Counted from the first letter of the stretch, positions 48 through 26,701 are shown. The stretch: 30,611 bases of DNA from Craspedostauros australis (GCA_030167865.1 JALAGF010001187.1:62001-92611), one strand, 5' to 3'. Made by a program: numbers and translations. Notes: generated from the sequence alone by a model not told the origin.

Positions 48-1193
48 TTGGCTGTTGTTGATTGGTGCCATCGCCGCCGTTGCCTCCAAAGAAGATCTGC
101 GTTGCGGAAGGTCCTCTGCCATCACATTCTCAAAGAAGAGCGTGGCGCATGCCGATGCGTTGTCGGAGTCAATCGAGTCGTTCTGTATCCGTGACTGGAG
201 ACTCAGTGCAAGATACCAATCGCCAAATGGTGCCACCAACTTCGCGCCCAAAATTGCAGCTGCTCCATCATTCTTGGTCGTCTGTCATGTTCCTTGAAGC
301 TCTAGATCTTCTTGCATGACACAACATCATTCAGCATCGTCGTCCTTCTTCGATCAGCAGATCAGCAACGTCAGAGTCATCGGTCATCCTGTTCCCGTCC
401 ACCGCTCGACGAAGATCAAGAACCGACATCTCGTGCTATCGCACGATACATGTAGGTCATCATTCACTCTCAACCAGCAACAGAAGATGACAGTCAAATA
501 ATCATAGTTAGCCTTTCACACGATCACAAGATGGACATGCCGATAAGGTGCGTCATGTGTTCAGATGCAAATTCCGGCATTTCCTTGTTGACTCCAAGAA
601 ATGGATAAATCGAATCGACGTGCTCCACGATGATGCTCTGCACGCAAATCGAGTGCAACCTGGAAGTGCTCTATTCGTGGTTTGGTCATAATAGTAGTTG
701 TTAGATTTATCGACAGATTCAAACACGGAATGTCGTCGGTCACGATTCTTGGCGATTTGCCGTGTTGTATTGGTTGACGCTTGATGATGTCACTGACCTC
801 TCGAAACACGCAAGGAAATTTCTCTAGTTGGTGATCTGTCCAAAGCTGTCACATTTTTCCAAACACTTCCCTGCTGGTCCGCCCTTCCGTCACGGCATCA
901 CGCTTCTGTTTGCGAATACTGACAATTCGCAGACTTCTGTCTCCCAAGGTGTGCGATCAAAATGGCGACCATCACACAAGAGGGAGGATCGACACCTCGC
1001 CAGCAGAGGCGGAGTGGAGGGAGAAACAACTGGAAGGAGATTCGAAATGCAGGAAGGAACGGTGCGACGAAGCCTTGGGACAGCGCAGCATCTGCTGCAT
1101 GTACCTGTGCGAGTATGAGTGGTTCGTGTGTAACATCAATCCGATAGCGACCCGATAACGCTTGGCCGTACTCGTGCGAGGACGATCTTTGGT

Positions 1194-2741
1194 ATGCAAC
1201 CTCCTCCGATGATGTGCTCATTATCCGACAAGGCATCGCTGTGCTCCGATCAACCAACAGACTCATCAAACACATCGTGGGAGGGCATTCTCAGGCATTT
1301 GGAGGTACTCTCATACAGTCAACCAATCCAACCAGCTGGAGCGATGGATCGCCGGCCCCAAAATCATTTGGCTTTTGGATTAACTTCAACTTCCGCTTGG
1401 GCTCAGGATGGAGGCTGCATCGATAGCACCACCCGCAGCAGCAGCAGCGTCGGCGTCAGCGTCGGCGGAAGGACCAACTGGAGCTGCATACCGGTAAGCA
1501 ATCGCAACATTCCGTCGAGGCGTTTGGAACATGTGACGACACCGGGAAGACAACTCTTGAACAACCCCACACGGATCTCGCCAGAACCATCGCTTCACTC
1601 ACCGCTGCGTGTCCACGGCCAAGGGCTTGCAATGTCGAAGACTATCCATCGTGACGACAAGCATGACGACAACAATGGCAGAACCAACCACATGAACAAG
1701 CATGGCAATTGTGACACGGGGGCGAGCGATGATTTGGTCACGACACTCGATTCGTTGGACATGGATCAAATCCCGAACGTTGCGTGGACCGTGCATGATG
1801 ATGCATTCGAAGCAGCAGTCGAAGCAATTCAGCTCTCGGACTTGTCACATTCGAAACAACATCCAAAGCAAGTGCTCAAGACGCACCTTGACGACTCAGC
1901 GCTCTGCGCGCCGTTCATCATTCCACCCTTGGATCCGATGGAAGAGCTAGCCCAAAGGTCATCGTCAGCAAGCGCTGGCGACGCGGTGGCGATACCGTCG
2001 CTGTCACCGCGTCGGTCATTGTCTCCGATTCCATTCATTTCCGTGGATGGATCACCACGAGCATTGGCACTGCCGGGATGTTGGACAGTTCCAGAAGCAG
2101 CCGCTCGTATTCGCCATGCCATCTTTTGGAAGTCCGAAGAGCAAGTGCCACCTCTGCAGCCTCCTTCCAACGTACCGGAATGGGAGAGTGCGCCTACCCA
2201 ACATGCTACAATCAGCACAGCAATCAACAGCGCGAGGGGAGAGATCGCGACTCGCATTGCGCGGAACAGCTTGGTTGGGAAAGAAACCACGTCGGGGACA
2301 GAAGATGCCCAACCGCATGGTCCAGAGGCCATCGTGGAACAAGAGCTCGATCTCACCGATACCATGCTCCAGGATGACATCTTCATCAAGCAGCCAAACC
2401 CCAATGATGTGGTGTGCGAGAGGGGTAGCAGGAGCAACTCTCACCCCGGCAATCGTAGATACCTGGACCGCCTGCTCGAACTTCAGCCTGCATACAAGGC
2501 ATCGAAACGAGGTCCCAAGAGCAGCATTTGCATGGAGCTCATCCGCTGGGTCCAAGACACTCAGCACGGGCGATTTCTGAGGCAGGACAAGGTCACGCGG
2601 CATTGGTACGTGGCAGACGAGAAGTTCGTTCGCAACAAGGTCGGGCAATCATTGCGCGCCGACCACACCGCTGAAGGCAGAGAGGCAAAGCGCCAACGAT
2701 ACAGCGCAATTGCAAACCCACACGACAGGAGCACTTGCTGA
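1194..2741 (+). CDS. DUF6824 domain-containing protein (diatom-expanded family), 515 aa
   Basis: Long intronless ORF with a low-complexity N-terminus. The C-terminal region (~2400-2660) has the DUF6824 pattern NDVVCERGSRSNSHPGNRRY...YKASKRGPKSSICMELIRWVQDTQHGRFLRQDKVTRHWYVADEKFVRNKVGQSLR. Start codon uncertain. Confidence 0.85.
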   Translation: MQPPPMMCSLSDKASLCSDQPTDSSNTSWEGILRHLEVLSYSQPIQPAGAMDRRPQNHLAFGLTSTSAWAQDGGCIDSTTRSSSSVGVSVGGRTNWSCIPVSNRNIPSRRLEHVTTPGRQLLNNPTRISPEPSLHSPLRVHGQGLAMSKTIHRDDKHDDNNGRTNHMNKHGNCDTGASDDLVTTLDSLDMDQIPNVAWTVHDDAFEAAVEAIQLSDLSHSKQHPKQVLKTHLDDSALCAPFIIPPLDPMEELAQRSSSASAGDAVAIPSLSPRRSLSPIPFISVDGSPRALALPGCWTVPEAAARIRHAIFWKSEEQVPPLQPPSNVPEWESAPTQHATISTAINSARGEIATRIARNSLVGKETTSGTEDAQPHGPEAIVEQELDLTDTMLQDDIFIKQPNPNDVVCERGSRSNSHPGNRRYLDRLLELQPAYKASKRGPKSSICMELIRWVQDTQHGRFLRQDKVTRHWYVADEKFVRNKVGQSLRADHTAEGREAKRQRYSAIANPHDRSTC

Positions 2742-11475: not shown

Positions 11476-12933
11476 TGTGGAGATCGAGCTGGTTTTCTTT
11501 TGATGACTTGTGGGCTTCGACAAGCGTGCTGATCTTGGCGGAAAGTTGACGTGCAGGGGTTTGAATATATGCCGACACGCATGCTTGAATTGGCATCTCA
11601 TCACTCGTGCGTGCAATGCATCGCGTCGCACACTCACCATCTTCTGTGCGGTTGTTGCTCCTGCAGCCTACCGCTGCTGCTGCTGATGATGATGATGTGA
11701 AAAGATCTCACCAACTCCATCTCAGGTTTTTGCGTGAAGTTCCGAAGCATATCTTTTGCCATCATCCATGTACGTACAATGCCAAAGATATCGGCAGAAC
11801 ACTACCGGTGTGAGTAGAGTACGACCTAGGCCACAATGACTTCAACATGCTTCTCTCAATCAACACCAACCAATCGATTTGATCTTGACTGCTCGTCCCT
11901 CAACGCAACACCGCAGGTATGTCTTCCCACTCTCCTCCCATCATTCATTTGGTATAGCAAATGGTAACTATTCTATTATAGAATATGACAATGGAGTAGT
12001 TGCATTCCTGCAATCCAATCCATTCCAGTATCATCGTCATCCAGGCTTGCCTGTTGCCCCATACTTCGATGTATTCTATGAGGATACCTATGCGCAATGA
12101 ACTAAACTCGATCGTATGGTAGATTGTGTTGCTGGAGCTTGTGACCTGTTTGAAGACCATCAACCACGCAGCTCATTGCGCAAACCGGAAATGCGGCGAT
12201 CGAGTTTGTGAGCACAAAATTGGAGTTTCTTGGACAGTCGTCTGGTCGTCAGCGATGTGCATCGACCTATTGGACCAACAACCAAGGAGATTGGTTTGAC
12301 AACCCGGAGACACGCGAAGAAGGAAGAACTTTCCGATCAAGACATGAACCAACCAACCAACCGACGAAGGACAGACACATATCGCACCACGCACGCACTG
12401 AGAAGAACAACGATGCCAAAAAAACACCTGTTTTTCTGACAACAGGCGACACTGCGCACACACGAGGTACAAGCTGCGTGGACTCGGACGAGTGGTTCGA
12501 CGCACCTCATGGATCCATGAAGCACACGAAAAGCACTTCAACAACAACTCACTCCCCCACTCATTCACTCACCTTCGGATTTGAGATCAGACATCCAACC
12601 CAAGTGACAAGCAGCATTCCTGGTCATCCTTCGTTGTGCATTGGACAGAGGCAAAGATCAAGATCGAGACAAACAACGATGTGACGCAAGAGGGAGAGCG
12701 ACAAACAAGATCACAAGTCATTGCAGAGAGTTGCATTGCATAGCATTGCGTTGCAACATCCTCTCCAGAAGTAAACTGGCACCTGAAGCTCCTGGAGCTT
12801 CTCCAACAGCGTCAACGTCTCCAGAGTCAATTGGCTGCCATTGTACGAGTACTCGTATCAGCCCGAGCCGATCGTCAACCAGCACCTAACCCAACTTTCA
12901 CCAGTCTGTTGTTCTCAGTCATCCCGACGAGTG

Positions 12934-15900
12934 ATGGTCGCAATGGACAGCCATGTGCTCGCAGCGCACATCAACATGAACGTGAACGTGCCTCTCCACC
13001 AAGGCAACAGCAACGACAACGACAACGACAAGCCCAGTGCAAACCAAGCTCACAAGCGGATACGAAGACGGAGACGGCATGTGCTTTCGTCAAAGCCACA
13101 ACTTTCCCAATCGCTGTTGCAGCCCATCTCGCTCCTGTTGCTCATGGTGGCGTCACAGATCATCCCCACCTCTGCGTTGCAAGGTTGGCCAAGTAATCAT
13201 CGCACACAGTCGCCTCAGTTCGTCGATTTGGCTTCGGGCACATCGTCCATCATGACATCGATCAAGTGCTTCCGCCATCCATCACCATCAACACCGAGGG
13301 ATTCATCTCCGTTGATAGCATCGTTGCGGCATATCAATCCAAAGGCGCAGTCAACACTGCTCTTCTTCCGCTACTCGTCGGCATCATCCTCGAGATCATC
13401 AAGCGCCAAATTCACATCAACCAGTCTGCGATCGAGCAGCCACAACTCTGCAAGCCAGAGACGAATCACCCAATTGTCAGCACAGGAAAACAACCAGCAT
13501 GATTCATTTGTCGCCACCGCGAGCCATAGCAACGCTGGTGTCGGTTGTGAAGGAAGGAATGAGCGTGAAAATGAGCATAGCAAGGACAATAACAACGACA
13601 GCAACAGCAGCAGCAGCAGCAGTGACGGGCACAAATCAATACAGCCGCCTTCGTTTGATGCGACGGATAATGTCAGCGTCCTGCCAAGCCCAGATGAGGA
13701 AACGAAAATGGATGGAGAGCCTCATTCCGAAATTCAAAACGCATACTCTCATGACGCCGCGATGATTGAGGAATTGGACGAACTGGAAAACTACAACACG
13801 ATGACGACAGATACACTATCGTCATCACCCTCGTCGTCATCGTCGTCGTCCACTGCTGAGCACACCAATCAAGTACATTCCACGGATTACTGGACGAAGG
13901 TCTACCTTTTGGTGTCACACGCTGAAGATGCCAGAAAGGCCGAAGCCCTGCTGAGGGAGAAGGTCGAGGAGTTGTTGGCGCACAACATCACAACAGCCAC
14001 AGCCACAGCAGCAACCAGCGCGAACGCCATCGTCATCCAGAATGGCGACGGCAGCGATGTCAACCAACACCAAAAGAGTGCCGCCATGTCGAACCGCACA
14101 ATAATGCAACCGGTCAACCTCGATGTCTGCGAGGCAGTGCTCAAATCACTGATTCAAAAGAATTCGCCCGACCATGCAGAAGCCTTCCTCGTGCAGATGA
14201 TAGAATGGAACGACAAGTACGGCCTTGACATCCAACCAACAACACAAACCTTCTTTCATGTCATCGAGGCGTGGGAATTTTCCAAAGACCGTACCGGGGC
14301 CCACAGAGCTTTGGCGTTGCTCACCTACATGAGATCTTGCCGTGAATCGGCGTGGAACGCAAGGCTCGAGGCAACGGAAAATCAACCATCCGAAAAGCTT
14401 CACAACGACGCTCGTGCCGACCACACAGAGGGCGCCACCATGCACCAGCATTCGCGGTTTCCATTCGCGCCCGACCTGGCCTGCTTCAAGGCGGTCATGT
14501 ACGCCTTCACAACGCGCAACATGCTGGAGGAAGCCGATGCCGTGCATATGGAGCTCTGCAACGATTACTTCAAGTATGGCAAGGACCCGCACCTCGAGCC
14601 TGACAAGTCATCCTGGGGAGTCCTGCTGCAGGCATGGGCCCATTCGGCGCACTTGAATGATGCACCACTTCGAGCCGAGCAACTCGTTTCGCGGATGTGC
14701 GACATGCACCACAAGAACCCCTCCGTGGATTGCAAACCAGACATCTTCACCTACAACGCCGTTCTCAACGCATGGGCCAAATCGACGAATGCACTCGCGC
14801 CGGACCGTGTGCACTCCATACTGAGTCATTTGAAACAGCGGGCAGACGAGCACCCTGGCGAGGAGTACCCCGACATGTACACGTACAACCACGTTCTGGG
14901 CACATTCGCGAGGGCAGGTCTTGTGAAGCGATCGGAGCAGCTAATTGAAGAGATGCAGGAACAGTACGACAAGGGAGTTCTCAGCTCTGGACCGAATATG
15001 CGCTGTTACAACACCCTCCTCAAGGCCGTCTCACGATCGTGCGGTGGCAATATCGTCAGACGTGCAGAGGCGATCCTCAATAGGGCACGCGAGGCGGGTC
15101 TGCAACCGGATGTCATCATGTACACCACCATCGTTGACTGCTACATCCGGTCCAAGCACCCCCGGTCGGCAGATCGGGCTGTGTACTACCTCGACCAGAT
15201 GAAGGAGGAAGGTGTCCGGCCTGACTATGTGACGTACTGCATCGTCCTCGAGGCGATGGCCAAGGACGGGCCTGCTGAGCGCGTCGTGAACATGTTGGAG
15301 TATCTGTACATGCAGTACCAGCAGGGCAACAAGGAGGTGGAAGTGAATTCTCGCTTCTTCCGCATCGTGTTGTACGCATGGAGCAAATCGGAAATCCGTA
15401 ACGCCGCCAATGAGGCCGTTGGGGTTTTGAGATGGATGACCCGCCTCGCCGAAGAGGAGGGCATGGACACGATCCCCACGACCGTCTCGTACAATTGTGC
15501 CATCACCTGCTGGACCAAATCCAAGCAGAAGGATGCGGCGGCACAGGCCGAGGCCATTTACGAGGAGATGGTGAAGCAGTACGAAGCTGGGCACGAGGAG
15601 TCACGTCCAGACATCATCACCTACACGTTGCTGATGAGGGTGCACCGCGATCCTCGCAAGGCGGAATCGGCCTGGCAACGCATGTGGGACGATTACTGTT
15701 CTGGCAACCAAAGCGCCGCGCCCGACCGACTCACATTCATCGGATTGATGCAAACGTGGTTGGGTTCATCTCACGAGAACGCAATCGACAAGGCTGATAG
15801 CATCCTGCAGCGCATGCATGCCTGTCACGAAAGCCACGGAGTGGGCACAAGGCCTGATCGGGGAGCGTACAACGTGGTGATTGCGGGCTGGGCCAAGTCA

Positions 15901-16725
15901 TCGCGTCCTGATGCCGCGCACAGAGCGGAGGCTCTGATGCTGGACATGCGCGACCGATACGAGCAAGGTGATAGGCACGCGCGACCGGATTACATCACGT
16001 ACAGGCATGTACTCGCCGCCATGGCCAACGCCAACGATGCTGCAATGGCTGATAGATTCGTTCGTGACATGTACCACCGTTTCGATGCCGGCGACCGATA
16101 CGCCGTGCCCACCTTCCAGCACTGCCAGCAGGTGCTGGAGCTGTGGTCCATGAACCGCGAACCAGAATCCTACCGGCATGCGTACAGCATGCTCATGTTC
16201 ATGAAGCAAGTGTACAGCGGCAAGCACAAGCTGATCGTTGCCCCCAACAACAAGAGCTACAACATCATCCTGAGGGTCCTGCGCAACGTGAACCCCTCCA
16301 ACCCGAAGGCCATCAAGGTCGCGGAGCTGCTGTTCGAGGAGATGAAGGAGGGCGCGCGTCACAACAACGCGCATGTGACGCCCACCTTCCGGACGTATCA
16401 ATTCATGATCCAGATGTACGCCCACCGCCCTTCCGCCTACAGCGTGATGCGCGCCGAGGATCTGCTGTACGAGTTGCTCGGTGGCAGCGTTCGGTCGAGA
16501 TCGGGCAAGCAAGAGAATCCCGACTCCGGCAGCTACAACGCCTTGATCCGGATGATGCTGCGCGTCAAGTCTTTGCCACATCGGGAGGATCGGTTGGCCC
16601 GCGTACTCCAAGCGATGAAGAAGCAGCACGTTAGGCTGGAGAAGACCTCGGAACGAGCCATTCAGAAAATCATGCGACAGTCGAACTGGGCACCACCGAA
16701 ACGGGCGCGACGCAGCGAACACTAA
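12934..16725 (+). CDS. pentatricopeptide repeat (PPR) protein, ~1260 aa, probably organelle-targeted
   Basis: Intronless ORF; first in-frame ATG at 12934. Many PPR motifs, e.g. PDIFTYNAVLNAWAKS, PDMYTYNHVLGTFARAG, PNMRCYNTLLKAVSRS, PDVIMYTTIVDCYIRS, PTTVSYNCAITCWTKS, PDRGAYNVVIAGWAKS. The N-terminal hydrophobic stretch is followed by a Ser/Arg-rich segment. Confidence 0.95.
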   Translation: MVAMDSHVLAAHINMNVNVPLHQGNSNDNDNDKPSANQAHKRIRRRRRHVLSSKPQLSQSLLQPISLLLLMVASQIIPTSALQGWPSNHRTQSPQFVDLASGTSSIMTSIKCFRHPSPSTPRDSSPLIASLRHINPKAQSTLLFFRYSSASSSRSSSAKFTSTSLRSSSHNSASQRRITQLSAQENNQHDSFVATASHSNAGVGCEGRNERENEHSKDNNNDSNSSSSSSDGHKSIQPPSFDATDNVSVLPSPDEETKMDGEPHSEIQNAYSHDAAMIEELDELENYNTMTTDTLSSSPSSSSSSSTAEHTNQVHSTDYWTKVYLLVSHAEDARKAEALLREKVEELLAHNITTATATAATSANAIVIQNGDGSDVNQHQKSAAMSNRTIMQPVNLDVCEAVLKSLIQKNSPDHAEAFLVQMIEWNDKYGLDIQPTTQTFFHVIEAWEFSKDRTGAHRALALLTYMRSCRESAWNARLEATENQPSEKLHNDARADHTEGATMHQHSRFPFAPDLACFKAVMYAFTTRNMLEEADAVHMELCNDYFKYGKDPHLEPDKSSWGVLLQAWAHSAHLNDAPLRAEQLVSRMCDMHHKNPSVDCKPDIFTYNAVLNAWAKSTNALAPDRVHSILSHLKQRADEHPGEEYPDMYTYNHVLGTFARAGLVKRSEQLIEEMQEQYDKGVLSSGPNMRCYNTLLKAVSRSCGGNIVRRAEAILNRAREAGLQPDVIMYTTIVDCYIRSKHPRSADRAVYYLDQMKEEGVRPDYVTYCIVLEAMAKDGPAERVVNMLEYLYMQYQQGNKEVEVNSRFFRIVLYAWSKSEIRNAANEAVGVLRWMTRLAEEEGMDTIPTTVSYNCAITCWTKSKQKDAAAQAEAIYEEMVKQYEAGHEESRPDIITYTLLMRVHRDPRKAESAWQRMWDDYCSGNQSAAPDRLTFIGLMQTWLGSSHENAIDKADSILQRMHACHESHGVGTRPDRGAYNVVIAGWAKSSRPDAAHRAEALMLDMRDRYEQGDRHARPDYITYRHVLAAMANANDAAMADRFVRDMYHRFDAGDRYAVPTFQHCQQVLELWSMNREPESYRHAYSMLMFMKQVYSGKHKLIVAPNNKSYNIILRVLRNVNPSNPKAIKVAELLFEEMKEGARHNNAHVTPTFRTYQFMIQMYAHRPSAYSVMRAEDLLYELLGGSVRSRSGKQENPDSGSYNALIRMMLRVKSLPHREDRLARVLQAMKKQHVRLEKTSERAIQKIMRQSNWAPPKRARRSEH

Positions 16726-18564: not shown

Positions 18565-20892
18565 CTATTGGAAGTCGTTTGGATAAATCTCCCTCCAGGT
18601 ATCGCGCATCTTCTGAGACAGCTCCGGGTGGTTGCTTTGGAACTCATTTGGACAGTCCGCGAACAGGACGATGATGGCGTTGACCCCGGATGCAAAGGTG
18701 CTGTTGAGGATGGCGGAGATGACGAAACCCGCGAGGAAACCGATGAAGAAGGCGAGCAGCGTCGTGTTGTCTCCCGCATCCTTCAGGATGTCTGAGATCT
18801 CGTCGATCAGGATCGCCACACCGCCCATGATGAGACCGACGACAAGGCTGCCAAGGAAGAGGGCGTTCTCCACCAAATCGTCTGCGATGATCGCCTCCCA
18901 ACCTCTGTTCTTGAACAGCTCGAAGACGGACTTGCCTGCCTTGATGTATGGGAATCCATAAATGCCTGTGTGATACATACATGCAAGTTGTGTGGTTGGA
19001 CGAAGACGGAAGGTGCCGTGATGAGTTAGTACGAGATCGTGATACACAGCAAGTGGGTCGCAACAGAGTGGCAAGACAAAGACTCGTTCACCAATCACAT
19101 TACAGCAATCACCGAACAGTAATCACCAAACAACAACCGCCAATGACACATCGCAGCATTGGCAGATAGCAGGAAGCAACGACAGGAGACTTACCGACGT
19201 AAATGAATGCCCACTTGTTGAAGTACTGTAGGATGGCCTCGAGACAACCGAGGATGCATTCGGCGATGCAGGCACCGATGCCACCATTCTCTCTTGCGCT
19301 CCTCGCCAAGGTCTTGAGGGTCTGGAGGATGGCGACGAGAAGGGAACCGAAGCAGATGCTGCCGAAGGAGGTCGTCATTGTCCGGATGAAGGAGTTGGTG
19401 ACAGCGGAGCCGCAGCAGCCGTTCTCCTCTGGAGAAATCCACCATGTCGCAGTCACGCCCGCGACTTGGACGTGGATAGAGTTCTGCAGGAGCATTGTTC
19501 GTAGTTGCATTCAATTGGGTACCAATGCGATTAGATGACGGCAATGGATGAGATCGAAGGTACATTGTGTGAAGGCACAGTAGAAAGCACGAAAGAAGTG
19601 GGGGACGGCGCCGTGGGCATGTGAGCGAGCGGATGCAATGGTGGATGTGATATGTCTGCCAATGACGGCGCAGATACGATTCCTGATCCAGATGAACCCT
19701 GCAATCGCGAGGCGCAAGCGGGTCGATGGAACTGTGCAAACTGTCTCACCTTCAAGATCTCCTGACCGAAGAAGAAGGAAAGCAGCAGCATAATGATGGC
19801 GAATGGGTTCGGCTCCTCGTCGCAATTGCCAAATTCATCGCATTCGACGTTGTTCTCGTAGGTTCCGATGAAGGCGACCACCCAAATGAAGGCCCACACA
19901 AACGCCATGATGGCAAAGCCGTACGCGAAGAAGATGATGCCAAAATTGGCGCGGATGGCGGTGATGGACGTGACGAGGTTGACTGTTGCAAACGGGATGC
20001 GGGCCCACACGGCTCGTGCGTAACAGAGGCTGTTTGATTTGCAGCCGTGTGCGTGCGGGGTGCGGTTGTTGAGAAGTCGTGCATGCATGCATTGCATGCA
20101 TTGGAGGGTGTGCATGGGTGGCCAGAAGGTCCATGAAGTGGAGTTGCGCAACAGATCATCGCGAATGTCGTATATATCATATAATATTGTATAATGTGAT
20201 ATCGTAGCATAGTTTCCAACCCAGTTGATTTCAGTTGAGATGTGTTGACGATGAAGAGGAAGTAGCGAATGTGTGAGTTGCAGTGTGCGATCAAAGAACA
20301 TGGAGTAGAGCAAATGAAGGGCCGAGCATCTCCCCAGACTCAATCCAGACAACACACTGCACAGCATGGTGCACATGACACGAGGATGTCGTGCACAATG
20401 CTCATATGTATAATATTCTACCAAAGCACGGTGCACTCGCACAAGCTGAACTTACACAAGCGCAAGATAGATCAACGAAAAGATGACCCCGAAGTAGTTC
20501 TGGAGGATGACGTTGATGACCACCATGATGGCGCTCATGACGACAGAAAAGATGAGGGCCACCTTGATGATGAGGGTCGGGAAGGACATCATGAAGAGCA
20601 TGCCGAGCAGGCTGAGCACGCCGGACAGAGCGCTGGTGGCAATGAAGGCGTAGATGTAGCCATCGTACTCGCGCACGTTGCCGCTGTCCTCGTTGCTGGT
20701 GAAGACCTTGTCGCTGAAGGCTCCGGCCACCACAGCGATGGCGATGAGGTTGATGTAGCCGAGAGCGGCGAAGATGGGATCGTTGCAGCTGGTCTTGCTG
20801 CCATTCTCCTCTCCGCCAAGGTGGTTGGGCGACTGGTTGGCATTGCCAGCCTCAACGGCCGTTCCTTGGACGACGACGGGGGTGTCTGCCAT
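18565..20892 (-). CDS. choline transporter-like (CTL/SLC44/Pns1 family) membrane protein; 4 exons (20892..20456, 20029..19750, 19483..19195, 18965..18565), 468 aa
   Basis: CTL motifs CNDPIFAAL, WARIPFA, HVQVAGVTATWW, TTSFGSICFGSLLVAILQ, YFNKWAFIYVGIYG and ELFKNRGWEAIIADDLV. Three GT-AG introns (20455..20030, 19749..19484, 19194..18966) have consistent phases (2, 0, 1) and give one continuous 1407-nt ORF. Confidence 0.93.
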
Positions 20893-20975
20893 GATTCGCT
20901 TCCTCTTCTTCTCTATTATGATGTATGTGTGCGATATGTGATGCCAGTGAGGTTGCTTATGGTTGTCGCTGCCAC

Positions 20976-21026
20976 GATGCAATGTGGTGCAATGTGATGT
21001 GATGCAATGTGATGCAATGTGATGTG
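20976..21026. repeat. imperfect (GATGCAATGT/GATGT)n repeat upstream of CTL gene
   Basis: gatgcaatgtggtgcaatgtgatgtgatgcaatgtgatgcaatgtgatgt. Confidence 0.75.
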
Positions 21027-21605
21027 GTGACACCCTTCCGTGTTTCGGTGGCGCTTCCCACCTGCAAAGATCTCTCCATCTGCCTCCAACAAAAAAAGCG
21101 CTCCCAAATCTTCGTTATGCTTCGTTCATGTGCGTGTTTTCCCCATAGTCGCACCCTGGTTCGTGTTCGGGCGACCTGTCGTTGTTGCACACAACACGTG
21201 CTCATTGGGTCGTGGAACCACACGATGCAAAGTTCGAAGTTGATTTCGCGCGCCACTTGAGTCGTGAGGATCTTGCACGAGAATGTGCCTGATCAAGTAC
21301 CCCTTCCGCCTCCAACTTCGTTGGGCTGGGTACTTGCGCGAATTCTCCCATGGATGCTCTGCGCCCACAATCCTTCCCATGTGTCCAGCTACCGCAGCTC
21401 ATAGTATCATGGGTAGTACAATGTTCTAGCGTTATCTACAGGCACTCGCGGTACCATAGCGCATAGCGAGTCCAGATACGAATGAGGAGAGGAATTCGGC
21501 AGAAGACGAGGGCCCTCAGTCCCTGCGTGGCACCGCCACACAGCAACAGGAGAGATGAACCCAGGCCAACGCATTGCAACCCAATGCAACGCATTGCGCC
21601 GCCCG

Positions 21606-24600
21606 CTAGCAGTACTCGTCATCCATGCCGAGCTCATCGTTCTCGCGAGCGCGCTGATGCTCCGCCCAAACATCTTCATCCACGACGGTCCGCCGGATCT
21701 TTCGCTGGGTGCGATTGGGATGCGAGATGTTCACTTGGAACATCGTGCGGATGTCCACCTCGTACGTCCACTCCAGCGTCTGCAGGATCACCTTCTTGGG
21801 TGGCGTGGGGAGATTGAAAGCGTGCTCCAACGCCTCGCGGTGATACAGCGAGTACGGTAGCCAGTACTCGTCCTGCTTGTACTCCCACACGACCATCGTT
21901 GGAGGCGTTTCTGTCGAATCGGTCGCGGAGGTTGTGCTGCCGTGACCCGTCGCCGGTGAAGATGGGGTGCTGATCGGATGCTGCCTGCTGGCGGGAGGTG
22001 ATGGCAGGACGTTGGGTCCTGTCGAGGCTGTCTGCTTCTGTGCGGGTAGTCCATACTCGTCAGCCTCCTCCACTGGAGTGAGCGGCATGGACTCCAAGAT
22101 GGTATCATCCGTCTCACCTAGCTCCATCTGACTAACGTTGCAGTACTCATCCGATGGTGCATCCATCGGTTTCGTGATGACTTGATTGGTCGGTGAAGGC
22201 GGGGATATTGGCACTCTGTGTATTGCTTTCTGCGTTTTCTTCTGCGCTGCCTTGTCGCTACCCTTGTTGGTGAAAAATCCATGCTTCTCAGCTTCTTCCT
22301 GCGTTTCGAACGGTGTCCGCTGCGGGTCTCTTGTCGGACTTGTGTAGTATCGCACGAGACTGTTGGCAACGACAGTCGAGCACGAGTACGAGTACGACAC
22401 ATGACGACGAAATCGATCGGAATGAAGAAGCGCATTGACAAACGAATGGAAATGGTGTGTGAGTAATTGCGCGCCATACTCTTTCCGACGAACATGATGC
22501 TGCCACACACCTCGGTGCCACCTATGACGCGCCATGCAAGACACATGGCGTGAAACGCACAAGACGAATCACACACCGAGAAGGAATCGCGACGGGCGTT
22601 GGCATGCTGCTTGTCAAATGTTCGACCTCCAACATTGAACGTCGCACGCAATCCACAGCATAGCCATTTCATCCAATGTTCCCGACCCTGCCTCTTGCCT
22701 CTTGCCACCACGACATCCTGCAATCACACGAATGCACTTACAGTTCTGGGTACGCGCGTCCGTTCTCATACACCACCCAAATCTTGCTACCCCCTGATCG
22801 ACCCGTGACGGTGTTGTACTTCAGATTCGTTTGAGGGTCCACAGGTGGTGCCGTCAGGTTCGCGCACGTGTCCTCGAACTCCTCGCTCTTGAGGCGGTTC
22901 ATGAAGATGGCGTTGCCGACCAGCAGCTTCGCGAGGAAGAGTTCGCGTTCGTCCGCCTCGGCGTTCGATCGTTCGTTCGTGTGGAATGGGAATAATTTAT
23001 CCTCCTTGCTCTTCATCTCGTGCGGTTTGTAGGAGTAGCAGTCTGAGTACATACTTTGTTCTGCGAAGTAGATGCCTCGTCTGTGCAATGCAATGCAATG
23101 CAATGCAATGAAGTGCGATGCGTTTGTGCATGTCGGGATTGAAGTATGTCATTTTGGCCAATGGTAGAAGAATAGTACGGATGGAAAGCAAGATGTTGGT
23201 CAGAACATGCGCATGCACACGTTGGATAGTAAAAGCGTCCAAGCGTTCATTCGTTCAATCGCGCAATTGTCCAAGCGATCAATCGTTGGATGAGAGCAAT
23301 CCAGAAGCAATCCAATAGGACTCCACAGCAGAACATGAGCCAAAAACTCACCCCCAGAAGCCCTCCTTGGCGAACTGCATCATGAAGCCATCCTGCTGGT
23401 CGTTGTAGACGAGCTCCGGATCCAGGCTCGACGTGCCATGCCACGCCAGCCGTTCGTTGGGCTTGATATCGTGCATCTCTAACCGGTCCTTGTGGAAGCA
23501 GTAGTACGTCCACAGGGGCATGTTCTGCACCCTCCACAGCTTGCTTATGTAGGTGTCCGGCATGGTCTCTCTCATGCGATCGTGCACCATCCAGTAGGTC
23601 TCCTCGTCGGGACCGATCTCGTTGAGGACCTTGTTGGATTGCGCCCAATCCGACGGTCTGGTCTGCAAGAGCGCGCGCTTGCCAATGAGCTCGGCCTTTT
23701 TCAACCGTGCCTGATCCACCGTCTCATTCAAACCCTCTAGCGCCGAATCGATCGCCATCTTCTCCTTGAATGCGCGCTTCGCCTTGCGGCTGCGCCAGTA
23801 CTTGAAGGTGACGATCGTGAGGAGCAGGCAGACGACGCCCAGGAGGGAGAGCGACACGACCATCGCCGTGTTGAAAGACTTGGACGAGTACGGGAAGGTA
23901 TCCGGCGGGATGACGCCGCATTCCACCTCCGGGAAGCATGCCTCCTTGGGACGGAAGATGCTCTTGCTCAGCCCGGACGAATTGACCTGGACGAAGGCAA
24001 CGTCGGCCCAGACGAGGTTGTAGGGATAGAAGGACTCGCGGCGCAGGTTGAAGAGGGTGAATTGAGGGTCCTTGCGGTCGCCCTCTGCCGTGAAGCTGAC
24101 GGGGCCGCTGACACCATGCATCTCCGTTTGGCGGATCAAGGAGGAGACCAGCTTCCCATCCATGCGCTTCTCCTTGGGCAACGAGGAGAGGGCGGTGGCC
24201 ATGATGACGAGGACGTCTACCATGTGGTTAGCGGCGTAGTCCGGTAGCTCCGTGAGCGGGTTGTCGGGGTAGGGACGCGCCTTCTTGCGGAGGAAGTCGT
24301 TGTAGAGGGTGAGGAACTCATCGAAGACTTCGTTGTTCTCCTTGTAGGGGATGATGCTGAGGATGCCGGGCTTGTCGGGAACCCATGACATGTCGCCGGA
24401 TGCGAAACCGCGCATCTCGGGCGTGATGAAGATGAGCTCGGGGAAGATGCCGGGCGCATCGCAGGCTTCTTTGGCGTTTCTGTTGATGTCGCTGATGATG
24501 TTGTGGATCTGGAAGGAGTGCTCCTTGTGCGCGAAGAGGAGGACGATGCGCGTGTTGGTTTCTGAATTCTTGGACGGCAGGGTTGCCAGCGCTCGGCAGG

Positions 24601-25717
24601 CCGAGGCGGGATCGACGTTCTTTCGACTCGTGAGGGGGTCCGTCACCAAATCGATCGCCGGGGCCTGGTGAACCACCACGCCGCCGATATCAGGCTGCTT
24701 CCACAATAACCGGAACTGCTCCGCCATGCCGATGGGGAAGGCCGTGTTGGTCGTCATGATGGAGACGTGCTTCCACTTGTACTGCTCCAGCGCCACGATG
24801 AGCGCCCCCACTTGGCCCTTGTCGTTGTCGGGTGCGTTCATCCTGGAAAAGACCGGGAAGCGATAGTCGTCCGTGAGCTCCGCCGAACTCGCGGACGGTG
24901 ACATCTGAGGGATGAACTCCAAACCGGCAATGTTGGCGACGGCAATGGAAGAGCTGGAGCAACGGCAGCCGATAACTCCATGGACCTTGCCGTTGAGCTT
25001 GTTGTAGGCATCCCAGTAGCCGCGCATGGCCTGCGTGCCGTCACATCCCGATGCCACAATTTCATAGTGCATCATCTCACCGTCGGGAAAGAGGTCGTCA
25101 TGCCACCCGTCCGTGCGGTCGTTGATGAAGGAAAAGAGCGCCTCCGTGAGATCCTCCACCCAAACGAAGTTGTTGGTGTCCATCGCGACGATGATGTTGA
25201 TCTTGTCGTCATCATCGTCGTCTTCGGCATTGAGCGTGTTGTTGCTATGGTTCAGCCTCCTTCTCTTCTGCATGAACTCCATGTCGACGTCCACATCAAA
25301 GTCCACCCCGTGCACGCGCATAGCCTCCGTCCGGGTGGCCGATTTTCGCCGACCCAAGTCTATGAATGGGGTCTGATGCTGCGACTGTCGTGGCTGCTGA
25401 GGCTGCTGTGACGGTTGCCTTTGCGTCTGCGTCTGCGTCTGCTGGTGTTGCGGTTGCTGCTTCTGGCGGACTTCCGCCTGACGTTGATGCTGGTGCAATG
25501 TTGATGACGCACCACTCGTAACATGAGTCCGAGTATGAGTCTGAGTACGAGCAGCGTCTGCTCTGTTCGCTGCATCCTGTCGTTCAAGTGACTGCTCCAA
25601 TACACTGGCTGCGGCGCTGATCGTGCACAATAGACAGCAGAGGGCAACGGAACCCACCCACTTGATGCCTGCCTTGTGCATGGCAGCAGAGCCTATCTGG
25701 CTGGATTCGTCACGCAT
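21606..25717 (-). CDS. single-pass receptor: signal peptide - ANF/Venus-flytrap ligand-binding domain - TM - coiled coil - PARP catalytic domain (H-Y-I) - WWE domain; 3 exons (25717..23352, 23080..22742, 22359..21606), ~1152 aa (1140 if started at ATG 25681)
   Basis: Both introns are GT-AG and phase 2; splicing rebuilds the PARP motifs GFWG|RGIYFAE and AYPEL|LVRYY. VFT motifs: GVIGCRCSSSSIAVANIAGLEFIPQMSPSASSAELTDDYRFPVFSRM, YKWKHVSI, GVSGPVSFTAEGDR. TM AMVVSLSLLGVVCLLLTIVTF is followed by KYWRSRKAKR. PARP motifs: ISKLWRVQN, NERLAWHGT, LFLAKLLVG, KYNTV, KIWVVY. WWE: VVWEYKQDEYWLPYS...ALEHAF...YEVDIRTMFQVN...TQRKIRR. Confidence 0.9.
22360..22741 (-). other. intron 2 of receptor-PARP gene (382 bp)
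   Basis: Minus-strand donor GTAAGT at 22741; acceptor ...GCCAACAG ending at 22360. Joins AYPE-L-LVRYY, matching the PARP terminal strand YPEYLITY. Confidence 0.85.
23081..23351 (-). other. intron 1 of receptor-PARP gene (271 bp)
   Basis: Minus-strand donor GTGAGT at 23351; acceptor (CATTG)5-CACAG ending at 23081. Joins FWG-RGIYFA. Confidence 0.9.
23084..23110. repeat. pentanucleotide microsatellite (CAATG)5 abutting the splice acceptor
   Basis: tgcaatgcaatgcaatgcaatgcaatg. Confidence 0.9.
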
Positions 25718-26701
25718 TGCTTGTGCTTGTGCGCGTGCTTGTGCTCAGGAGTTGGACTTGGCACAAAGCGTGGCAAGTCACGGTGAGGTCTCTTGACCAA
25801 AGCTCCGCTTGTTGCCAGCTGCGTTATAGTCGATCGTATGGTATTCCACTCTGCTCTGCGGTCTACTCTATCCGTGGTCAACCTCTGCTACCGTATATTC
25901 TATTTCAATAGAATACTCTGCAGCTGATGACGTCCTCCACAATTGTTGATGACTGGGTTGTGGCTCTGATGCTCTATTGTGTATCTCTCCGGAGGGGGCA
26001 GAGAGCAGGAGCACCCACGAAGATGACTCAGGTACGACTGTGTTACTAATAGGTCATATAGTTCGATCTATCATACAATTGTGAGGGATAATACCACACC
26101 ACACACCCCCAACACGGCAGGTAGGCAGGTCAGAATGCGGATGTTGCTTGTTCTGATGTGATTCGCTTGTGGCTTTTCTTCCCTCCTTGTCTCTGTGCTG
26201 CCTCTTTCGCGTCGCTGTGTTTTGCTCTTGGTTTCCCAGTTTCTTTGTCGCACTTCGTTCCCTTCTCCCCCAAGACATCCGCCAAAACTTCACGACCACG
26301 ATCTGGAAGTCCATTGAGTCGTCCACACAGCGACATCCACGAGTGGGTCGGCGCGTCGTTGTCGCACACGAAATATTGGCTGCACACATGTCTCTGTGTC
26401 TGTATGGTGCAACATGATGTTTGGTGACCGATACAAATTGCAAATGAAACAGCTTTGCACAGACACAAATCGCAGCACAAATGCGGAAAAAGGGAGAATC
26501 ATGACAGCGTAAAATCAAATGGCGATGCAAACAGAAATGACAATCCATGACAGAATCTCCCACAACAAACTTGGGTCATCCAGACTCGTTTGGATGGACA
26601 GTCGGAGGCACCAGACCAACGACAACGACAACGACAACGACCAACGCCAACACCGATAGAAGTATTGTGCATACGAGCACATACAGCCACAGCGGAAGAT
26701 C

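What the first reader, a model, noticed from the sequence alone, without database searches (positions are those of the whole stretch)
21606..25717. Candidate 'receptor ADP-ribosyltransferase': Venus-flytrap ectodomain fused through one TM helix to a cytoplasmic PARP domain and a WWE domain
Seen in sequence: exon 1 alone (ORF 23348..25717) runs uninterrupted from signal peptide through the ANF/VFT domain, TM and coiled coil into the first half of a PARP domain (RVQN...AWHGT), so the fusion does not depend on splice prediction. Two phase-compatible GT-AG introns complete the PARP domain and add a WWE domain. Established knowledge: type-1 periplasmic-binding (VFT) ectodomains normally sit on class C GPCRs, iGluRs and receptor guanylyl cyclases (NPR-A/B), and characterised PARP/ARTD enzymes are nuclear, cytosolic or tail-anchored (PARP16). 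Inference: this protein has the layout of a receptor guanylyl cyclase with the output swapped for an ADP-ribosyltransferase, i.e. an extracellular small-molecule signal converted directly into intracellular ADP-ribosylation. I know of no characterised receptor with this architecture, but cannot exclude automated annotations of homologs.
Basis: partly seen in the sequence, partly recalled or inferred. Interest (0 to 1): 0.93.

Follow-up and report, generated by a model that had tools for sequence, protein, structure and literature searches.

The report
Receptor-like membrane ADP-ribosyltransferase gene
A three-exon gene, probably from a diatom, encodes a single-pass membrane protein with a Venus-flytrap sensor outside and a PARP-type ADP-ribosyltransferase plus a WWE reader inside, an enzyme-linked receptor layout that seems undescribed in print.

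Summary
The minus strand 25717..21606 carries three exons joined by two GT..AG introns, giving 1152 codons and one terminal stop. The order is signal peptide, ANF/Venus-flytrap domain (Pfam E 7.7e-29), one TM helix, a heptad-patterned helix, a PARP catalytic domain, a disordered linker and a WWE domain (E 2e-12).

The PARP triad is H760-Y793-I889, the mono-ADP-ribosyltransferase type. Relatives, including transcript-derived ones, read straight across both junctions. His and Tyr are invariant in the 31-row family alignment.

The family is large: 155 clusters at E<=1e-30. It has a second arrangement (VFT-TM-WWE-PARP), a relative with a CUB/EGF ectodomain on the same output module, and a VFT-TM-TIR relative. 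Models of relatives match mGluR/GLR/LivK flytraps (Z about 35), PARP15/10 (Z 19-20) and WWE domains (Z about 11).

Eight full-text searches found no paper describing this fusion. One PARP survey reported none in two diatom genomes; a later one found at least two in a third diatom.

Ligand control, enzyme activity, dimerisation and location are inferred. The splice junctions lack RNA evidence from this organism.

Verdict: a real, conserved, probably active receptor-type mono-ADP-ribosyltransferase, and a new variant of enzyme-linked receptors.

The parts
21606..25717 (-). Whole coding region: 3 exons, 1152 codons plus a TAG stop at 21608-21606
23352..25717 (-). Exon 1 (aa 1-788 plus 2 nt): signal peptide, VFT, TM, helix and the first half of PARP including the catalytic His
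23081..23351 (-). Intron 1, 271 nt, GTGAGT..CAG, phase 2. It holds a (TGCAA)7.6 repeat at 23084-23121
   Evidence: Six of 19 relatives end at this point.
22742..23080 (-). Exon 2 (339 nt): second half of the PARP domain with Tyr793 and Ile889
22360..22741 (-). Intron 2, 382 nt, GTAAGT..CAG, phase 2. If retained, a TAA stop follows the exon at once
21606..22359 (-). Exon 3: last PARP strand, disordered linker, WWE domain and stop
25604..25717 (-). Signal-peptide-like N-terminus (aa 1-38). The hydrophobic core is followed by a small-residue A-A-A-S site. A second Met lies at aa 13
   Evidence: hydropathy, and the sequence read directly. The cleavage site is my reading; no predictor was run.
25298..25585 (-). 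Q/R/T-rich low-complexity stretch (aa 45-140), not conserved
   Evidence: Q 22, R 12, T 12 of 96. The matching part of relative P0001 has pLDDT <50.
23891..25207 (-). Venus-flytrap / ANF-receptor ectodomain (aa 171-609; Pfam core aa 216-559)
   Evidence: 101.3 bits. (mGluR8 E 1.7e-11). (family profile 1-415 matched in full). (model of relative, Z about 35).
23804..23866 (-). Single transmembrane helix (aa 618-638), followed by a K/R-rich stop-transfer stretch
23660..23803 (-). Juxtamembrane basic stretch and amphipathic helix with 3-4 hydrophobic spacing (aa 639-686); candidate coiled coil
   Evidence: It is helical in the models. WIN and P0001 lack 11 residues that most relatives have here.
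22344..23641 (-). PARP-type ADP-ribosyltransferase catalytic domain (aa 693-907, interrupted by both introns). His760 is at 23440-23438, Tyr793 at 23070-23068 and Ile889 at 22782-22780
   Evidence: models of relatives
21894..22343 (-). S/T/P-rich linker (aa 908-1057), poorly conserved
   Evidence: alignment. The matching part of P0001 has pLDDT <50.
21690..21893 (-). WWE domain (aa 1058-1125)
   Evidence: 47.8 bits, E 2e-12. (aligns to TRIP12, Deltex and RNF146 WWE). (relative's model Z 11.4 / 10.8).

Best explanation
The gene encodes a type I single-pass membrane protein that most likely works as an enzyme-linked receptor with ADP-ribosylation as its output.

SHOWN
- Gene structure: three exons, 1152 aa.
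- Domain order: signal peptide, Venus-flytrap (ANF / type-1 periplasmic-binding) domain, one TM helix, a basic stop-transfer stretch plus a heptad-patterned helix, a clade-3-like PARP catalytic domain, a disordered linker and a C-terminal WWE domain.
- Catalytic residues: His760-Tyr793-Ile889, with the surrounding NAD+-pocket motifs.
- Conservation of this architecture across a large family.

INFERRED
- The flytrap faces outward, or into a lumen, and the PARP and WWE domains face the cytosol.
- The flytrap binds a small, probably amino-acid-like ligand.
- As in other flytrap receptors, the protein acts as a dimer. Lobe closure would be passed through the TM helix and coiled coil to the paired catalytic domains.
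- The catalytic domains would then use NAD+ to mono-ADP-ribosylate each other or nearby substrates.
- The WWE domain would bind the ADP-ribose (or adenine-nucleotide) moiety, retaining or recruiting modified partners. That puts a writer and a reader in one chain.
For: Gene model. The spliced CDS is open for 1152 codons with canonical GT..AG introns. Eleven of 19 aligned relatives read through junction 1 and 9 also through junction 2. These include a transcript marked 'type:complete' (P0006) and the closest relative P0001, 1089 aa on a 3512-nt contig.

Domains. In the window, ANF scores 101.3 bits and WWE 47.8 bits. In P0001, PARP scores 38.6 bits against a cut-off of 26.7, and in P0006 it scores 52.3 bits. 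The window's PARP region is 72.5% identical to that of P0001.

Topology. There are only two hydrophobic segments, one N-terminal and one internal. The internal one is followed by K/R-rich sequence.

Catalytic competence. In the 31-row family alignment the H-G-T motif is kept in 31 of 31 rows, and the Tyr and Phe of the Y-F-A motif in 30 of 30. The third triad position is Val in 25 and Ile in 4 of 29 rows. The window's Ile889 aligns with the Leu in the 'KLFVVF' strand of PARP15. I recall, rather than tested, that this Leu is PARP15's third triad residue.

Selection pattern. The PARP region is the best conserved part. Against relatives P0002-P0018 it is 50-68% identical, compared with 28-37% for the flytrap. 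This is the pattern expected of a conserved enzyme behind a diversifying sensor.

Folds, from models of relatives.
- P0001 flytrap (pLDDT >90): Z 35.2 to AtGLR3.4, 34.9 to mGlu8, 34.7 to LivK and 33.3 to NPR-C.
- P0077 cytoplasmic part (mean pLDDT 89): PARP15 Z 20.3 (rmsd 2.6, 184 aligned), tankyrase-2 Z 19.5 and PARP10 Z 19.3.
- P0077 WWE: TRIP12 WWE with ADP, Z 11.4; RNF146 WWE with iso-ADP-ribose, Z 10.8.
- Foldseek on the same model: PARP15 and PARP12, E about 7e-14, TM about 0.8.

Ligand pocket. Aligned to mGluR8 (E 1.7e-11), the window keeps a Ser in the C-S-S-S-S stretch, has Ser where mGluR8 has the Thr of its 'AST' motif, keeps the Asp of 'PD', and has Phe where mGluR8 has the Tyr of 'NYGE'. 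In the family these columns read Ser 23/23; Thr 9 and Ser 9 of 22; Asp 17/22; Tyr 18 and Phe 4 of 22. I recall that these residues hold the alpha-amino-acid moiety in mGluRs.

Coiled coil. Conserved hydrophobic positions are spaced 4-3-4-3-3-4-3-4 after the TM helix.

Modularity.
- 13 of 20 first hits carry ANF+PARP.
- 18 of the 48 relatives I scanned carry ANF+PARP. Six of these have the other order, ANF-WWE-PARP.
- P0156 has a CUB/EGF ectodomain, and its TM-helix-PARP start repeats, residue for residue, the matching stretch of P0070, a TM-helix-PARP-WWE fragment.
- P0101 is ANF-TM-TIR_2.

Repeated, rearranged fusions of a sensor ectodomain to NAD+-using domains argue for a functional link rather than an assembly accident.
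Against: - No RNA evidence from this organism bridges either intron.
- The window's PARP pieces are each below Pfam's cut-off (17.1 and 13.7 bits against 26.7). The joined protein could only be scored with a profile built from its own family, which is not independent.
- The folds were predicted for relatives (P0001 and P0077), not for the window's own protein.
- Two of the four alignable pocket positions differ from mGluR (Thr to Ser, Tyr to Phe). The lobe-2 acidic residue could not be aligned. The ligand class is therefore a weak inference.
- From recall, the best-known WWE ligand is iso-ADP-ribose, which exists only inside poly(ADP-ribose). An H-Y-I enzyme should make only mono-ADP-ribose, so what this WWE reads is unclear.
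- The window-to-WWE structure matches by sequence are weak (E 0.04-0.5).
- Plasma-membrane location is assumed. A signal peptide plus a TM helix fits any secretory-pathway membrane.
- PARP-like domains with good folds can be inactive. RCD1 scores Z 15.3 and the TASOR pseudo-PARP also Z 15.3.
Confidence: 0.6

Rival explanations
1. Endomembrane sensor rather than cell-surface receptor. The protein would sit in the ER, Golgi or vacuolar membrane with the flytrap in the lumen, and would ADP-ribosylate cytosolic partners in response to luminal metabolites or stress. This is functionally nearer to tail-anchored PARP16 at the ER.
For: A signal peptide plus one TM helix fixes only the topology, not the destination. 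PARP16 shows, from recall, that a membrane-bound mono-ART can regulate ER stress sensors. No sorting signal was identified here.
Against: From recall, known ANF-type flytraps on single-pass or 7TM proteins are cell-surface sensors. The nearest structures are all surface receptors or periplasmic binding proteins. PARP16 is a far weaker structural match (Z 11.0) than PARP15 or PARP10 (Z 20.3 and 19.3).
Confidence: 0.15
2. NAD+-based danger or death receptor. The flytrap would recognise a microbe-, grazer- or damage-derived molecule. The PARP domain would act chiefly as an NAD+-consuming or stress/death-triggering effector, as one member of a set of receptors with NAD+-using outputs (PARP, TIR).
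For: A relative with a related flytrap carries a TIR_2 domain instead of PARP (P0101, 28.4 bits against a cut-off of 28). It falls on the flytrap tree with the family, near its base in the midpoint-rooted quick tree. The ectodomain diverges fast while the output stays conserved. The family is large and diverse, at 155 clusters with E<=1e-30. From recall, both patterns are typical of immune receptor families.
Against: No expression, infection or cell-death data exist. The pocket residues resemble amino-acid binders, which fits nutrient or metabolite sensing equally well. The TIR call is barely above its cut-off.
Confidence: 0.12
3. Pseudo-enzyme or scaffold. The PARP domain would bind NAD+ or partners without transferring ADP-ribose, as reported for plant RCD1/SRO, PARP13 and TASOR. 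The protein would then signal by recruitment only.
For: Inactive PARP folds score well against the model: PARP13 Z 16.7, TASOR Z 15.3 and RCD1 Z 15.3. Type A PARP domains score modestly against Pfam, at 28-65 bits, compared with 78-103 bits for the ANF-WWE-PARP forms.
Against: His, Gly and Thr are kept in 31 of 31 rows. The Tyr-Phe of the Y-F-A motif is kept in 30 of 30. The S-x-Y-S stretch and the final strand are nearly invariant. From recall, PARP13 and PARP9 have lost the His. The nearest solved relatives are the active mono-ARTs PARP15, PARP12, PARP14 and PARP10.
Confidence: 0.1
4. Artefact. The fusion would come from mis-assembly or from a wrong gene model that joins a flytrap gene to a separate PARP/WWE gene.
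For: No RNA read from this organism bridges the introns.
Against: Flytrap, TM, helix and the first half of the PARP domain lie in one uninterrupted ORF. Fourteen of the 150 listed relatives match P0001 in a single stretch from the flytrap to the end of PARP. Transcript-derived and roughly 3-kb-contig proteins carry the same order. Residues on both sides of each junction match the relatives.
Confidence: 0.02

Closest known systems
Receptor guanylyl cyclases (natriuretic peptide receptors NPR-A/B) and NPR-C
   Same: An ANF-type Venus-flytrap ectodomain, one TM helix, a helical or coiled-coil linker and a C-terminal enzyme domain. The NPR-C ectodomain matches the relative's model at Z 33.3. The protein-atlas feature search also pointed to NPR-C clusters, at a score of 0.80, which is a lead only.
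   Different: No kinase-homology or cyclase domain was found. The output is a PARP-type ADP-ribosyltransferase plus a WWE domain. By sequence the flytrap is nearer to mGluRs.
Clade-3 mono-ADP-ribosyltransferases with WWE domains (PARP11, PARP12, PARP7, PARP14) and PARP15/PARP10
   Same: They are the nearest solved catalytic domains: PARP15 E 3.7e-10, PARP14 E 9.9e-9 and PARP12 E 1.6e-8; Z 20.3 and 19.3, TM about 0.8. The triad is of the H-Y-hydrophobic type. A WWE domain sits in the same chain.
   Different: Here the WWE follows the catalytic domain, whereas it precedes it in those proteins (recalled). There are no zinc fingers or macrodomains. The whole module hangs from a TM helix behind an extracellular sensor.
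PARP16 (tail-anchored ER mono-ART)
   Same: A membrane-bound PARP with the catalytic domain in the cytosol.
   Different: PARP16 has a C-terminal tail anchor and no ligand-binding ectodomain (Perina 2014, PMC4245714, passages seen). It belongs to a different clade, and its structure is a weaker match at Z 11.0.
Class C GPCRs (mGluR, CaSR, GABA-B, T1R) and plant GLR / iGluR amino-terminal domains
   Same: The flytrap is closest to mGluR8/7/4 by sequence (E 1.7e-11). It ties with AtGLR3.4, mGluRs, GABA-B and LivK by fold (Z 33-35). The backbone-binding Ser and Asp are kept.
   Different: No cysteine-rich domain, no 7TM and no channel were found. There is a single TM helix and an enzyme output.
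Sister arrangement in the same protein collections: VFT-TM-WWE-PARP (for example P0019, P0068, P0081)
   Same: A related flytrap (35.5% identity to the window's), one TM helix, and WWE and PARP in the cytoplasmic tail.
   Different: The domain order is reversed. The PARP domain is at the C-terminus and is much closer to the Pfam model (78-103 bits). The window's own PARP subtype is nearer to soluble WWE-WWE-PARP proteins such as P0154 (41% identity, E 2.8e-39 to P0001).

Membership tests
PARP / ARTD catalytic domain (Pfam PF00644) | Match to the family profile above its curated cut-off | tested here: inconclusive
   The window's pieces score 17.1 and 13.7 bits against a cut-off of 26.7, because two introns split the domain. 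The joined protein could not be handed to the Pfam tool. The closest relative P0001, 72.5% identical in this region, scores 38.6 bits and P0006 scores 52.3 bits. A profile built from the family itself matches the joined protein at E 3e-109, which is not independent.
PARP / ARTD catalytic domain (Pfam PF00644) | H-Y-[E/I/L/V] triad and NAD+-pocket motifs (H-G-T, G-x-Y-F-A, S-x-Y-S) | tested here: met
   His760, Tyr793 and Ile889 were placed by alignment to relatives and to PARP15. The family columns read H 31/31, Y 30/30 and V/I 29/29. The meaning of the third position is recalled.
PARP / ARTD catalytic domain (Pfam PF00644) | ART fold | tested here: met
   Tested on a relative only. The model of P0077 (pLDDT 89) matches PARP15 at Z 20.3, rmsd 2.6, 184 aligned, and PARP10 at Z 19.3. 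Foldseek gives E 6.7e-14.
PARP / ARTD catalytic domain (Pfam PF00644) | NAD+-dependent ADP-ribosyl transfer | not testable with these tools
   Needs an enzyme assay.
ANF_receptor / type-1 periplasmic-binding Venus-flytrap (PF01094) | Profile match above the cut-off, and a bilobed fold | tested here: met
   101.3 bits against 25.4 on the window's exon 1. mGluR8 matches at E 1.7e-11. The model of relative P0001 reaches Z about 35 to GLR3.4, mGluR, LivK and GABA-B.
ANF_receptor / type-1 periplasmic-binding Venus-flytrap (PF01094) | Binding of a small ligand in the cleft | not testable with these tools
   Only pocket-residue conservation was seen. The residue roles are recalled.
WWE domain (PF02825) | Profile match above the cut-off | tested here: met
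   47.8 bits against 21.1, E 2e-12, at window 21690-21893.
WWE domain (PF02825) | ADP-ribose-contacting residues | tested here: inconclusive
   In the weak alignment to the RNF146 WWE domain (E 0.52), the window has Tyr, Trp, Tyr, Gln and Arg where RNF146 has them. Which of these touch iso-ADP-ribose is recalled, not tested.
Receptor guanylyl cyclase | Kinase-homology domain and class III cyclase domain after the TM helix | tested here: not met
   No such Pfam match at E<=0.1 in any exon translation. The tail is PARP plus WWE. It works like this family in layout but is not a member.
Class C GPCR | Cysteine-rich NCD3G domain and a 7TM domain after the flytrap | tested here: not met
   One hydrophobic segment follows the flytrap. 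No 7tm_3 or NCD3G match was found.
PARP16-type tail-anchored PARP | C-terminal TM anchor after the catalytic domain | tested here: not met
   The TM helix (aa 618-638) precedes the catalytic domain, and there is no C-terminal hydrophobic segment.

The most novel reading that the evidence does not exclude
Diatoms, and perhaps other marine protists, have a whole class of enzyme-linked surface receptors that signal through NAD+ chemistry. Interchangeable ectodomains (Venus-flytrap, CUB/EGF) would be coupled through one TM helix and a coiled coil to PARP-WWE, WWE-PARP or TIR modules. Ligand binding would directly switch on ADP-ribosylation, and a built-in WWE reader would capture the mark. That is the logic of a receptor tyrosine kinase with its SH2 partner, carried out with ADP-ribose. 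No transmembrane signalling mode of this kind has been described in any organism in the papers I could search.
Probability: 0.4. Interest if true: 0.92.

Novelty: new variant of a known kind. Interest (0 to 1): 0.8.

Why it matters
From recall, the known enzyme-linked receptors use kinases, phosphatases, guanylyl cyclases or histidine kinases as outputs. A receptor whose output is ADP-ribosylation would add a signalling chemistry. It would also give mono-ADP-ribosylation, whose upstream triggers are mostly unknown, a directly ligand-gated example.

The finding also changes the picture for diatoms. One broad PARP survey stated that diatoms appear to lack PARPs (PMC2964712, passages). A later survey found at least two in one Thalassiosira species (PMC4245714, passages and section 3.1.5).

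Here a family of at least 155 clusters at 50% identity places PARP domains behind extracellular sensors. Its named or labelled records are marine protists.

For diatom ecology, the flytrap's amino-acid-like pocket suggests a way to sense dissolved organic nitrogen or infochemicals. For protein engineers it offers a natural template for ligand-gated ADP-ribosyl writers.

Tried and rejected
RNA check of the junctions. The look-up of sequencing runs listed one run, X1, with its kind only guessed as RNA and a word share of 0.21. No RNA holder is listed. Laid on 21500-25800, it gave three contigs identical to the window, at 21500-22098, 22162-22346 and 22436-22656. None joins across an intron, and the third lies inside predicted intron 2. 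The rest of the gene has no cover. This neither confirms nor refutes the splicing, and it says nothing on expression.

Homodimer test. Complex prediction on residues 555-880 of P0001, two copies, gave 'no answer'. The scores were 0.38, 0.41 and 0.41, and one control scored 0.23. It counts neither for nor against dimerisation. The tool did not use my alignment.

Whole genome. None is held for this window. I could not look for paralogues or for ADP-ribose erasers.

Earlier notes of this scan. There was nothing by place, by words or by sequence.

Protein atlas. The best score was 0.80, to NPR-C clusters only, and no structure search was possible. This is a lead only.

Literature. Eight full-text searches ran, and one search failed on an argument error. 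No paper holds both PF01094 and PF00644. Only the two PARP surveys hold both 'WWE domain' and 'diatom'. The listed candidates I opened were irrelevant: PMC5756287 and bioRxiv 10.64898/2026.10.17.759577, passages only. The review by Aravind et al. 2015 (PMC6126934) is not held. Either could mention this architecture.

Tree. The careful tree of flytrap domains did not finish in three runs, so only the quick tree is used. It gives no direction of change.

Plastid targeting. I rejected this on recall alone. The residue after the likely cleavage site is Val, not the aromatic residue of the diatom plastid motif.

Full report
WHAT IS IN THE SEQUENCE

The minus strand holds a stop-to-stop ORF at 23348..25744 (798 aa), and its first ATG is at 25717. 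Reading the DNA shows a GTGAGT donor starting at 23351 and a CAG acceptor ending at 23081. It also shows a GTAAGT donor starting at 22741 and a CAG acceptor ending at 22360.

Joining 25717-23352, 23080-22742 and 22359-21606 in a script gives 3459 nt. That is 1152 codons with one stop, at the end. The introns are 271 and 382 nt, both phase 2. If intron 2 were retained, a TAA stop would follow the exon at once.

DOMAINS IN THE WINDOW ITSELF

Pfam on the separate exon translations gave:
- ANF_receptor at E 7.7e-29 (101.3 bits, cut-off 25.4, aa 216-559).
- WWE at E 2e-12 (47.8 bits, cut-off 21.1).
- Two sub-threshold PARP pieces that fit consecutive parts of the profile. Exon 1 scores 17.1 bits on profile positions 4-58, and exon 2 scores 13.7 bits on positions 85-134.

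Hydropathy finds only two hydrophobic segments. The first is N-terminal and ends in a small-residue A-A-A-S site, which I read as a signal peptide. The second is aa 618-638, followed by K/R-rich sequence. This fits a type I topology with the C-terminal part in the cytosol.

Between the signal peptide and the flytrap lies a Q/R/T-rich stretch. After the TM helix comes an amphipathic helix. In the family alignment its conserved hydrophobic positions are spaced 4-3-4-3-3-4-3-4, which is a coiled-coil pattern.

RELATIVES CONFIRM THE GENE MODEL

A search of the large protein collection with aa 150-789 of exon 1 gave 20 hits. Thirteen carry both PF01094 and PF00644, and 9 of those also carry WWE. 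Six carry only ANF. One is a fish class C GPCR at E 4.3e-5.

In an alignment of the joined window protein with 19 of them (the fish GPCR was left out), 11 continue in frame across junction 1. Nine of these also continue across junction 2, with near-identical residues on both sides. The six 'ANF only' proteins end exactly at the last residues of exon 1. That is what a gene caller blind to introns would produce at a conserved intron.

The closest relative, P0001, is 1089 aa and sits on contigs of 3512 and 3566 nt. P0006 is a transcript marked 'type:complete'. The fusion therefore exists in mRNA-sized molecules of relatives.

One hit is named as a hypothetical protein of the diatom Conticribra weissflogii. 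Another cluster holds a record labelled Picozoa. Most hits are unnamed, or carry the automatic label of a branched-chain amino acid binding protein.

The window protein is 50.6% identical to P0001 overall. The flytrap is 49.7% identical, PARP 72.5% and WWE 65.8%. Against P0002-P0018 the PARP part is 50-68% identical and the flytrap 28-37%.

SIZE AND VARIETY OF THE FAMILY

An exhaustive HMMER search with P0001 found 3028 representatives at E<=1e-3, 1020 at E<=1e-10 and 155 at E<=1e-30. Of the 150 listed:
- 14 match in one stretch from the flytrap to the end of PARP.
- 11 have a best stretch that stops at P0001 residue 737-740, the exon-1 end.
- 10 have a best stretch that starts at residue 735-738.

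The last two counts again fit a conserved intron.

I scanned 48 of the 150 against Pfam, mostly the long ones of my own choosing.

| Architecture | Count |
|---|---|
| ANF+PARP: window's order ANF-PARP-WWE | 9 |
| ANF+PARP: reverse order ANF-WWE-PARP | 6 |
| ANF+PARP: no WWE call | 3 |
| ANF+WWE only | 11 |
| ANF alone or with another domain | 8 |
| No ANF | 11 |

- The 8 'ANF alone or other' comprise 4 with ANF only, 2 giant multi-flytrap proteins with NCD3G, 1 ANF+TIR_2 at 28.4 bits (cut-off 28) and 1 ANF+WW.
- The 11 without ANF comprise 10 soluble PARP or WWE-PARP proteins and P0156.
- P0156 has CUB/EGF-like matches. Its TM-helix-PARP start repeats, residue for residue, the matching stretch of P0070, a TM-helix-PARP-WWE fragment.

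P0019 from the first search also has the reverse order.

Classifying all 194 stored sequences with profiles built from the family itself gave 73 with flytrap-TM-PARP in the window's order. Near-copies were included, and the test is not independent.

I built a quick, midpoint-rooted tree of 89 flytrap domains. These were the rows with one hit covering at least 330 of the 415 profile positions, so 105 rows were dropped. It places the window with P0001 and P0021 (SH-aLRT 100). It puts all 9 'flytrap+WWE' rows and 1 of the 4 reverse-order rows in one 12-row clade (support 99) among rows of the window's type. The careful search did not finish. I draw no direction of change from this tree.

IS THE ENZYME LIKELY ACTIVE?

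In the 31-row alignment A1 the H-G-T motif is invariant at 31/31. The Tyr and Phe of Y-F-A are kept in 30/30. The third triad column is Val in 25 and Ile in 4 of 29 rows.

In the window these residues are His760, Tyr793 and Ile889. The Ile aligns with the Leu of the 'KLFVVF' strand of PARP15 (that match alone is weak, E 0.44). From recall, H-Y-E enzymes can build polymers while H-Y-I/L/V enzymes transfer a single ADP-ribose. A mono-transferase is therefore expected.

By sequence the nearest solved proteins to P0001's catalytic part are PARP15 (E 3.7e-10), PARP14 (E 9.9e-9) and PARP12 (E 1.6e-8).

An AlphaFold model of P0077, a natural 375-aa helix-PARP-WWE fragment, has mean pLDDT 89.0. Its matches are:
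- PARP15 at Z 20.3 (rmsd 2.6, 184 aligned, 31% identity).
- Tankyrase-2 at Z 19.5.
- PARP10 at Z 19.3.
- PARP16 at only Z 11.0.
- For its WWE part, TRIP12 WWE with ADP at Z 11.4 and RNF146 WWE with iso-ADP-ribose at Z 10.8.
- By Foldseek, PARP15 and PARP12 at E about 7e-14 and TM about 0.8.

Inactive PARP folds also score well against this model: PARP13 at Z 16.7, and RCD1 and TASOR at Z 15.3 each. Fold alone therefore does not show activity. The invariant His and Tyr are the better argument.

THE SENSOR

The window's exon 1 matches mGluR8/7/4 ectodomains best (E 1.7e-11). The model of full-length P0001 has mean pLDDT 74.7. By region:
- The flytrap is above 90.
- PARP is 83-96, apart from one loop below 50.
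- WWE is about 85-91.
- The N-terminal stretch, the post-TM helix and the PARP-WWE linker are low.

Its flytrap superposes on AtGLR3.4, mGluRs, LivK, GABA-B and NPR-C at Z 33-35, all effectively tied.

In the mGluR8 alignment the window compares as follows at four pocket positions.

| mGluR8 residue | Window | Family column |
|---|---|---|
| Ser of the S-S-x-S stretch | Ser | Ser 23/23 |
| Thr of 'AST' | Ser | Thr 9, Ser 9 of 22 |
| Asp of 'PD' | Asp | Asp 17/22 |
| Tyr of 'NYGE' | Phe | Tyr 18, Phe 4 of 22 |

From recall, these four residues hold the alpha-amino-acid group in mGluRs. This hints at an amino-acid-like ligand but does not show it.

HOW IT MOST LIKELY WORKS

The layout is that of a natriuretic-peptide receptor guanylyl cyclase, with the cyclase replaced by a mono-ADP-ribosyltransferase and a WWE reader added. 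The proposed chain of events is:
1. Ligand closes the flytrap within a dimer.
2. The change passes through the TM helix and coiled coil.
3. The paired catalytic domains modify each other or nearby proteins.
4. The WWE domain binds the product.

Every step after the domain order is inference. The evidence does not exclude an endomembrane location, an NAD+-based danger or death role (suggested by the TIR-bearing relative), or a non-catalytic scaffold role.

One point no explanation covers: the best-known WWE ligand is an internal unit of poly(ADP-ribose), which an H-Y-I enzyme should not make.

WHAT IS KNOWN IN PRINT

- Citarelli et al. [quoted passage not shown]
- Perina et al. 2014 (PMC4245714, passages, and section 3.1.5 read in full) report at least two PARPs in Thalassiosira oceanica. 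They mention TM-linked clade-3 PARPs in a sponge and in Rhizaria, but no flytrap.
- Eight full-text searches found nothing on an ANF/flytrap-PARP fusion.

Three sources stayed out of reach and could bear on novelty: the review PMC6126934, all supplementary files and database architecture tables.

CHECKS THAT GAVE NO ANSWER

These are listed under Tried and rejected: RNA junction evidence, the homodimer prediction, the whole-genome search and earlier notes of this scan.

VERDICT

The gene is best described as a receptor-type mono-ADP-ribosyltransferase of a sizeable family. That family is unnamed in the open literature I could search, and its few named or labelled records are marine protists. 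It is a new variant of the enzyme-linked receptor, and its function awaits an enzyme assay and a ligand.

Noticed in passing
P0101 (842 aa): A relative with a related flytrap and one TM helix carries a TIR_2 domain (28.4 bits, cut-off 28) in place of PARP/WWE. That is a second NAD+-using output on the same kind of receptor.
   Followed up: partly
P0156 (1026 aa) and P0070 (516 aa): P0156 is a large CUB/EGF-like ectodomain followed by the same TM-helix-PARP start, residue for residue, as the TM-helix-PARP-WWE fragment P0070. The PARP-WWE output module is therefore used with a non-flytrap ectodomain too.
   Followed up: partly
P0019, P0068, P0081, P0146, P0152, P0158, P0161: This is a second receptor arrangement, flytrap-TM-WWE-PARP. 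Its C-terminal PARP domain is much closer to the Pfam model (78-103 bits). Eleven further proteins show flytrap+WWE only and may be truncated forms of it.
   Followed up: partly
P0063 (1154 aa), and the multi-TM rows: One protein has five PARP domain matches in tandem (260 bits in total). Two stored proteins have four or five hydrophobic segments before a PARP domain. The PARP subtype thus occurs in further odd architectures.
   Followed up: no
window 23084-23121, 20976-21026, 21558-21597: Short TGCAA / GATGCAATGT-type tandem repeats lie in intron 1 just before the acceptor, upstream of the neighbouring gene's ATG, and in the 3' flank of this gene. The read-laying tool skipped 23074-23124 as a repeat.
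   Followed up: no
window 22436-22656: A 221-nt contig of run X1, identical to the window, lies wholly inside predicted intron 2 at lower depth (4.5) than the 3' exon contig (22.6). It could be unspliced RNA or DNA. The kind of run is only guessed.
   Followed up: no
window 1134-2741 (+), 12787-16725 (+), 19531-21114 (-): The neighbouring ORFs are a DUF6824 protein (E 6.5e-19), a 1312-aa pentatricopeptide-repeat protein (PPR_2 E 3.4e-33) and a choline-transporter-like protein (E 2.3e-8). The last one's likely first exon lies just downstream of this gene. This is ordinary eukaryotic nuclear context.
   Followed up: partly
juxtamembrane helix, window 23660-23803: The window protein and P0001 lack 11 residues of the post-TM helix that most relatives have. 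Other members lack 10 or 14. Whether these length steps keep the helical register was not analysed.
   Followed up: no
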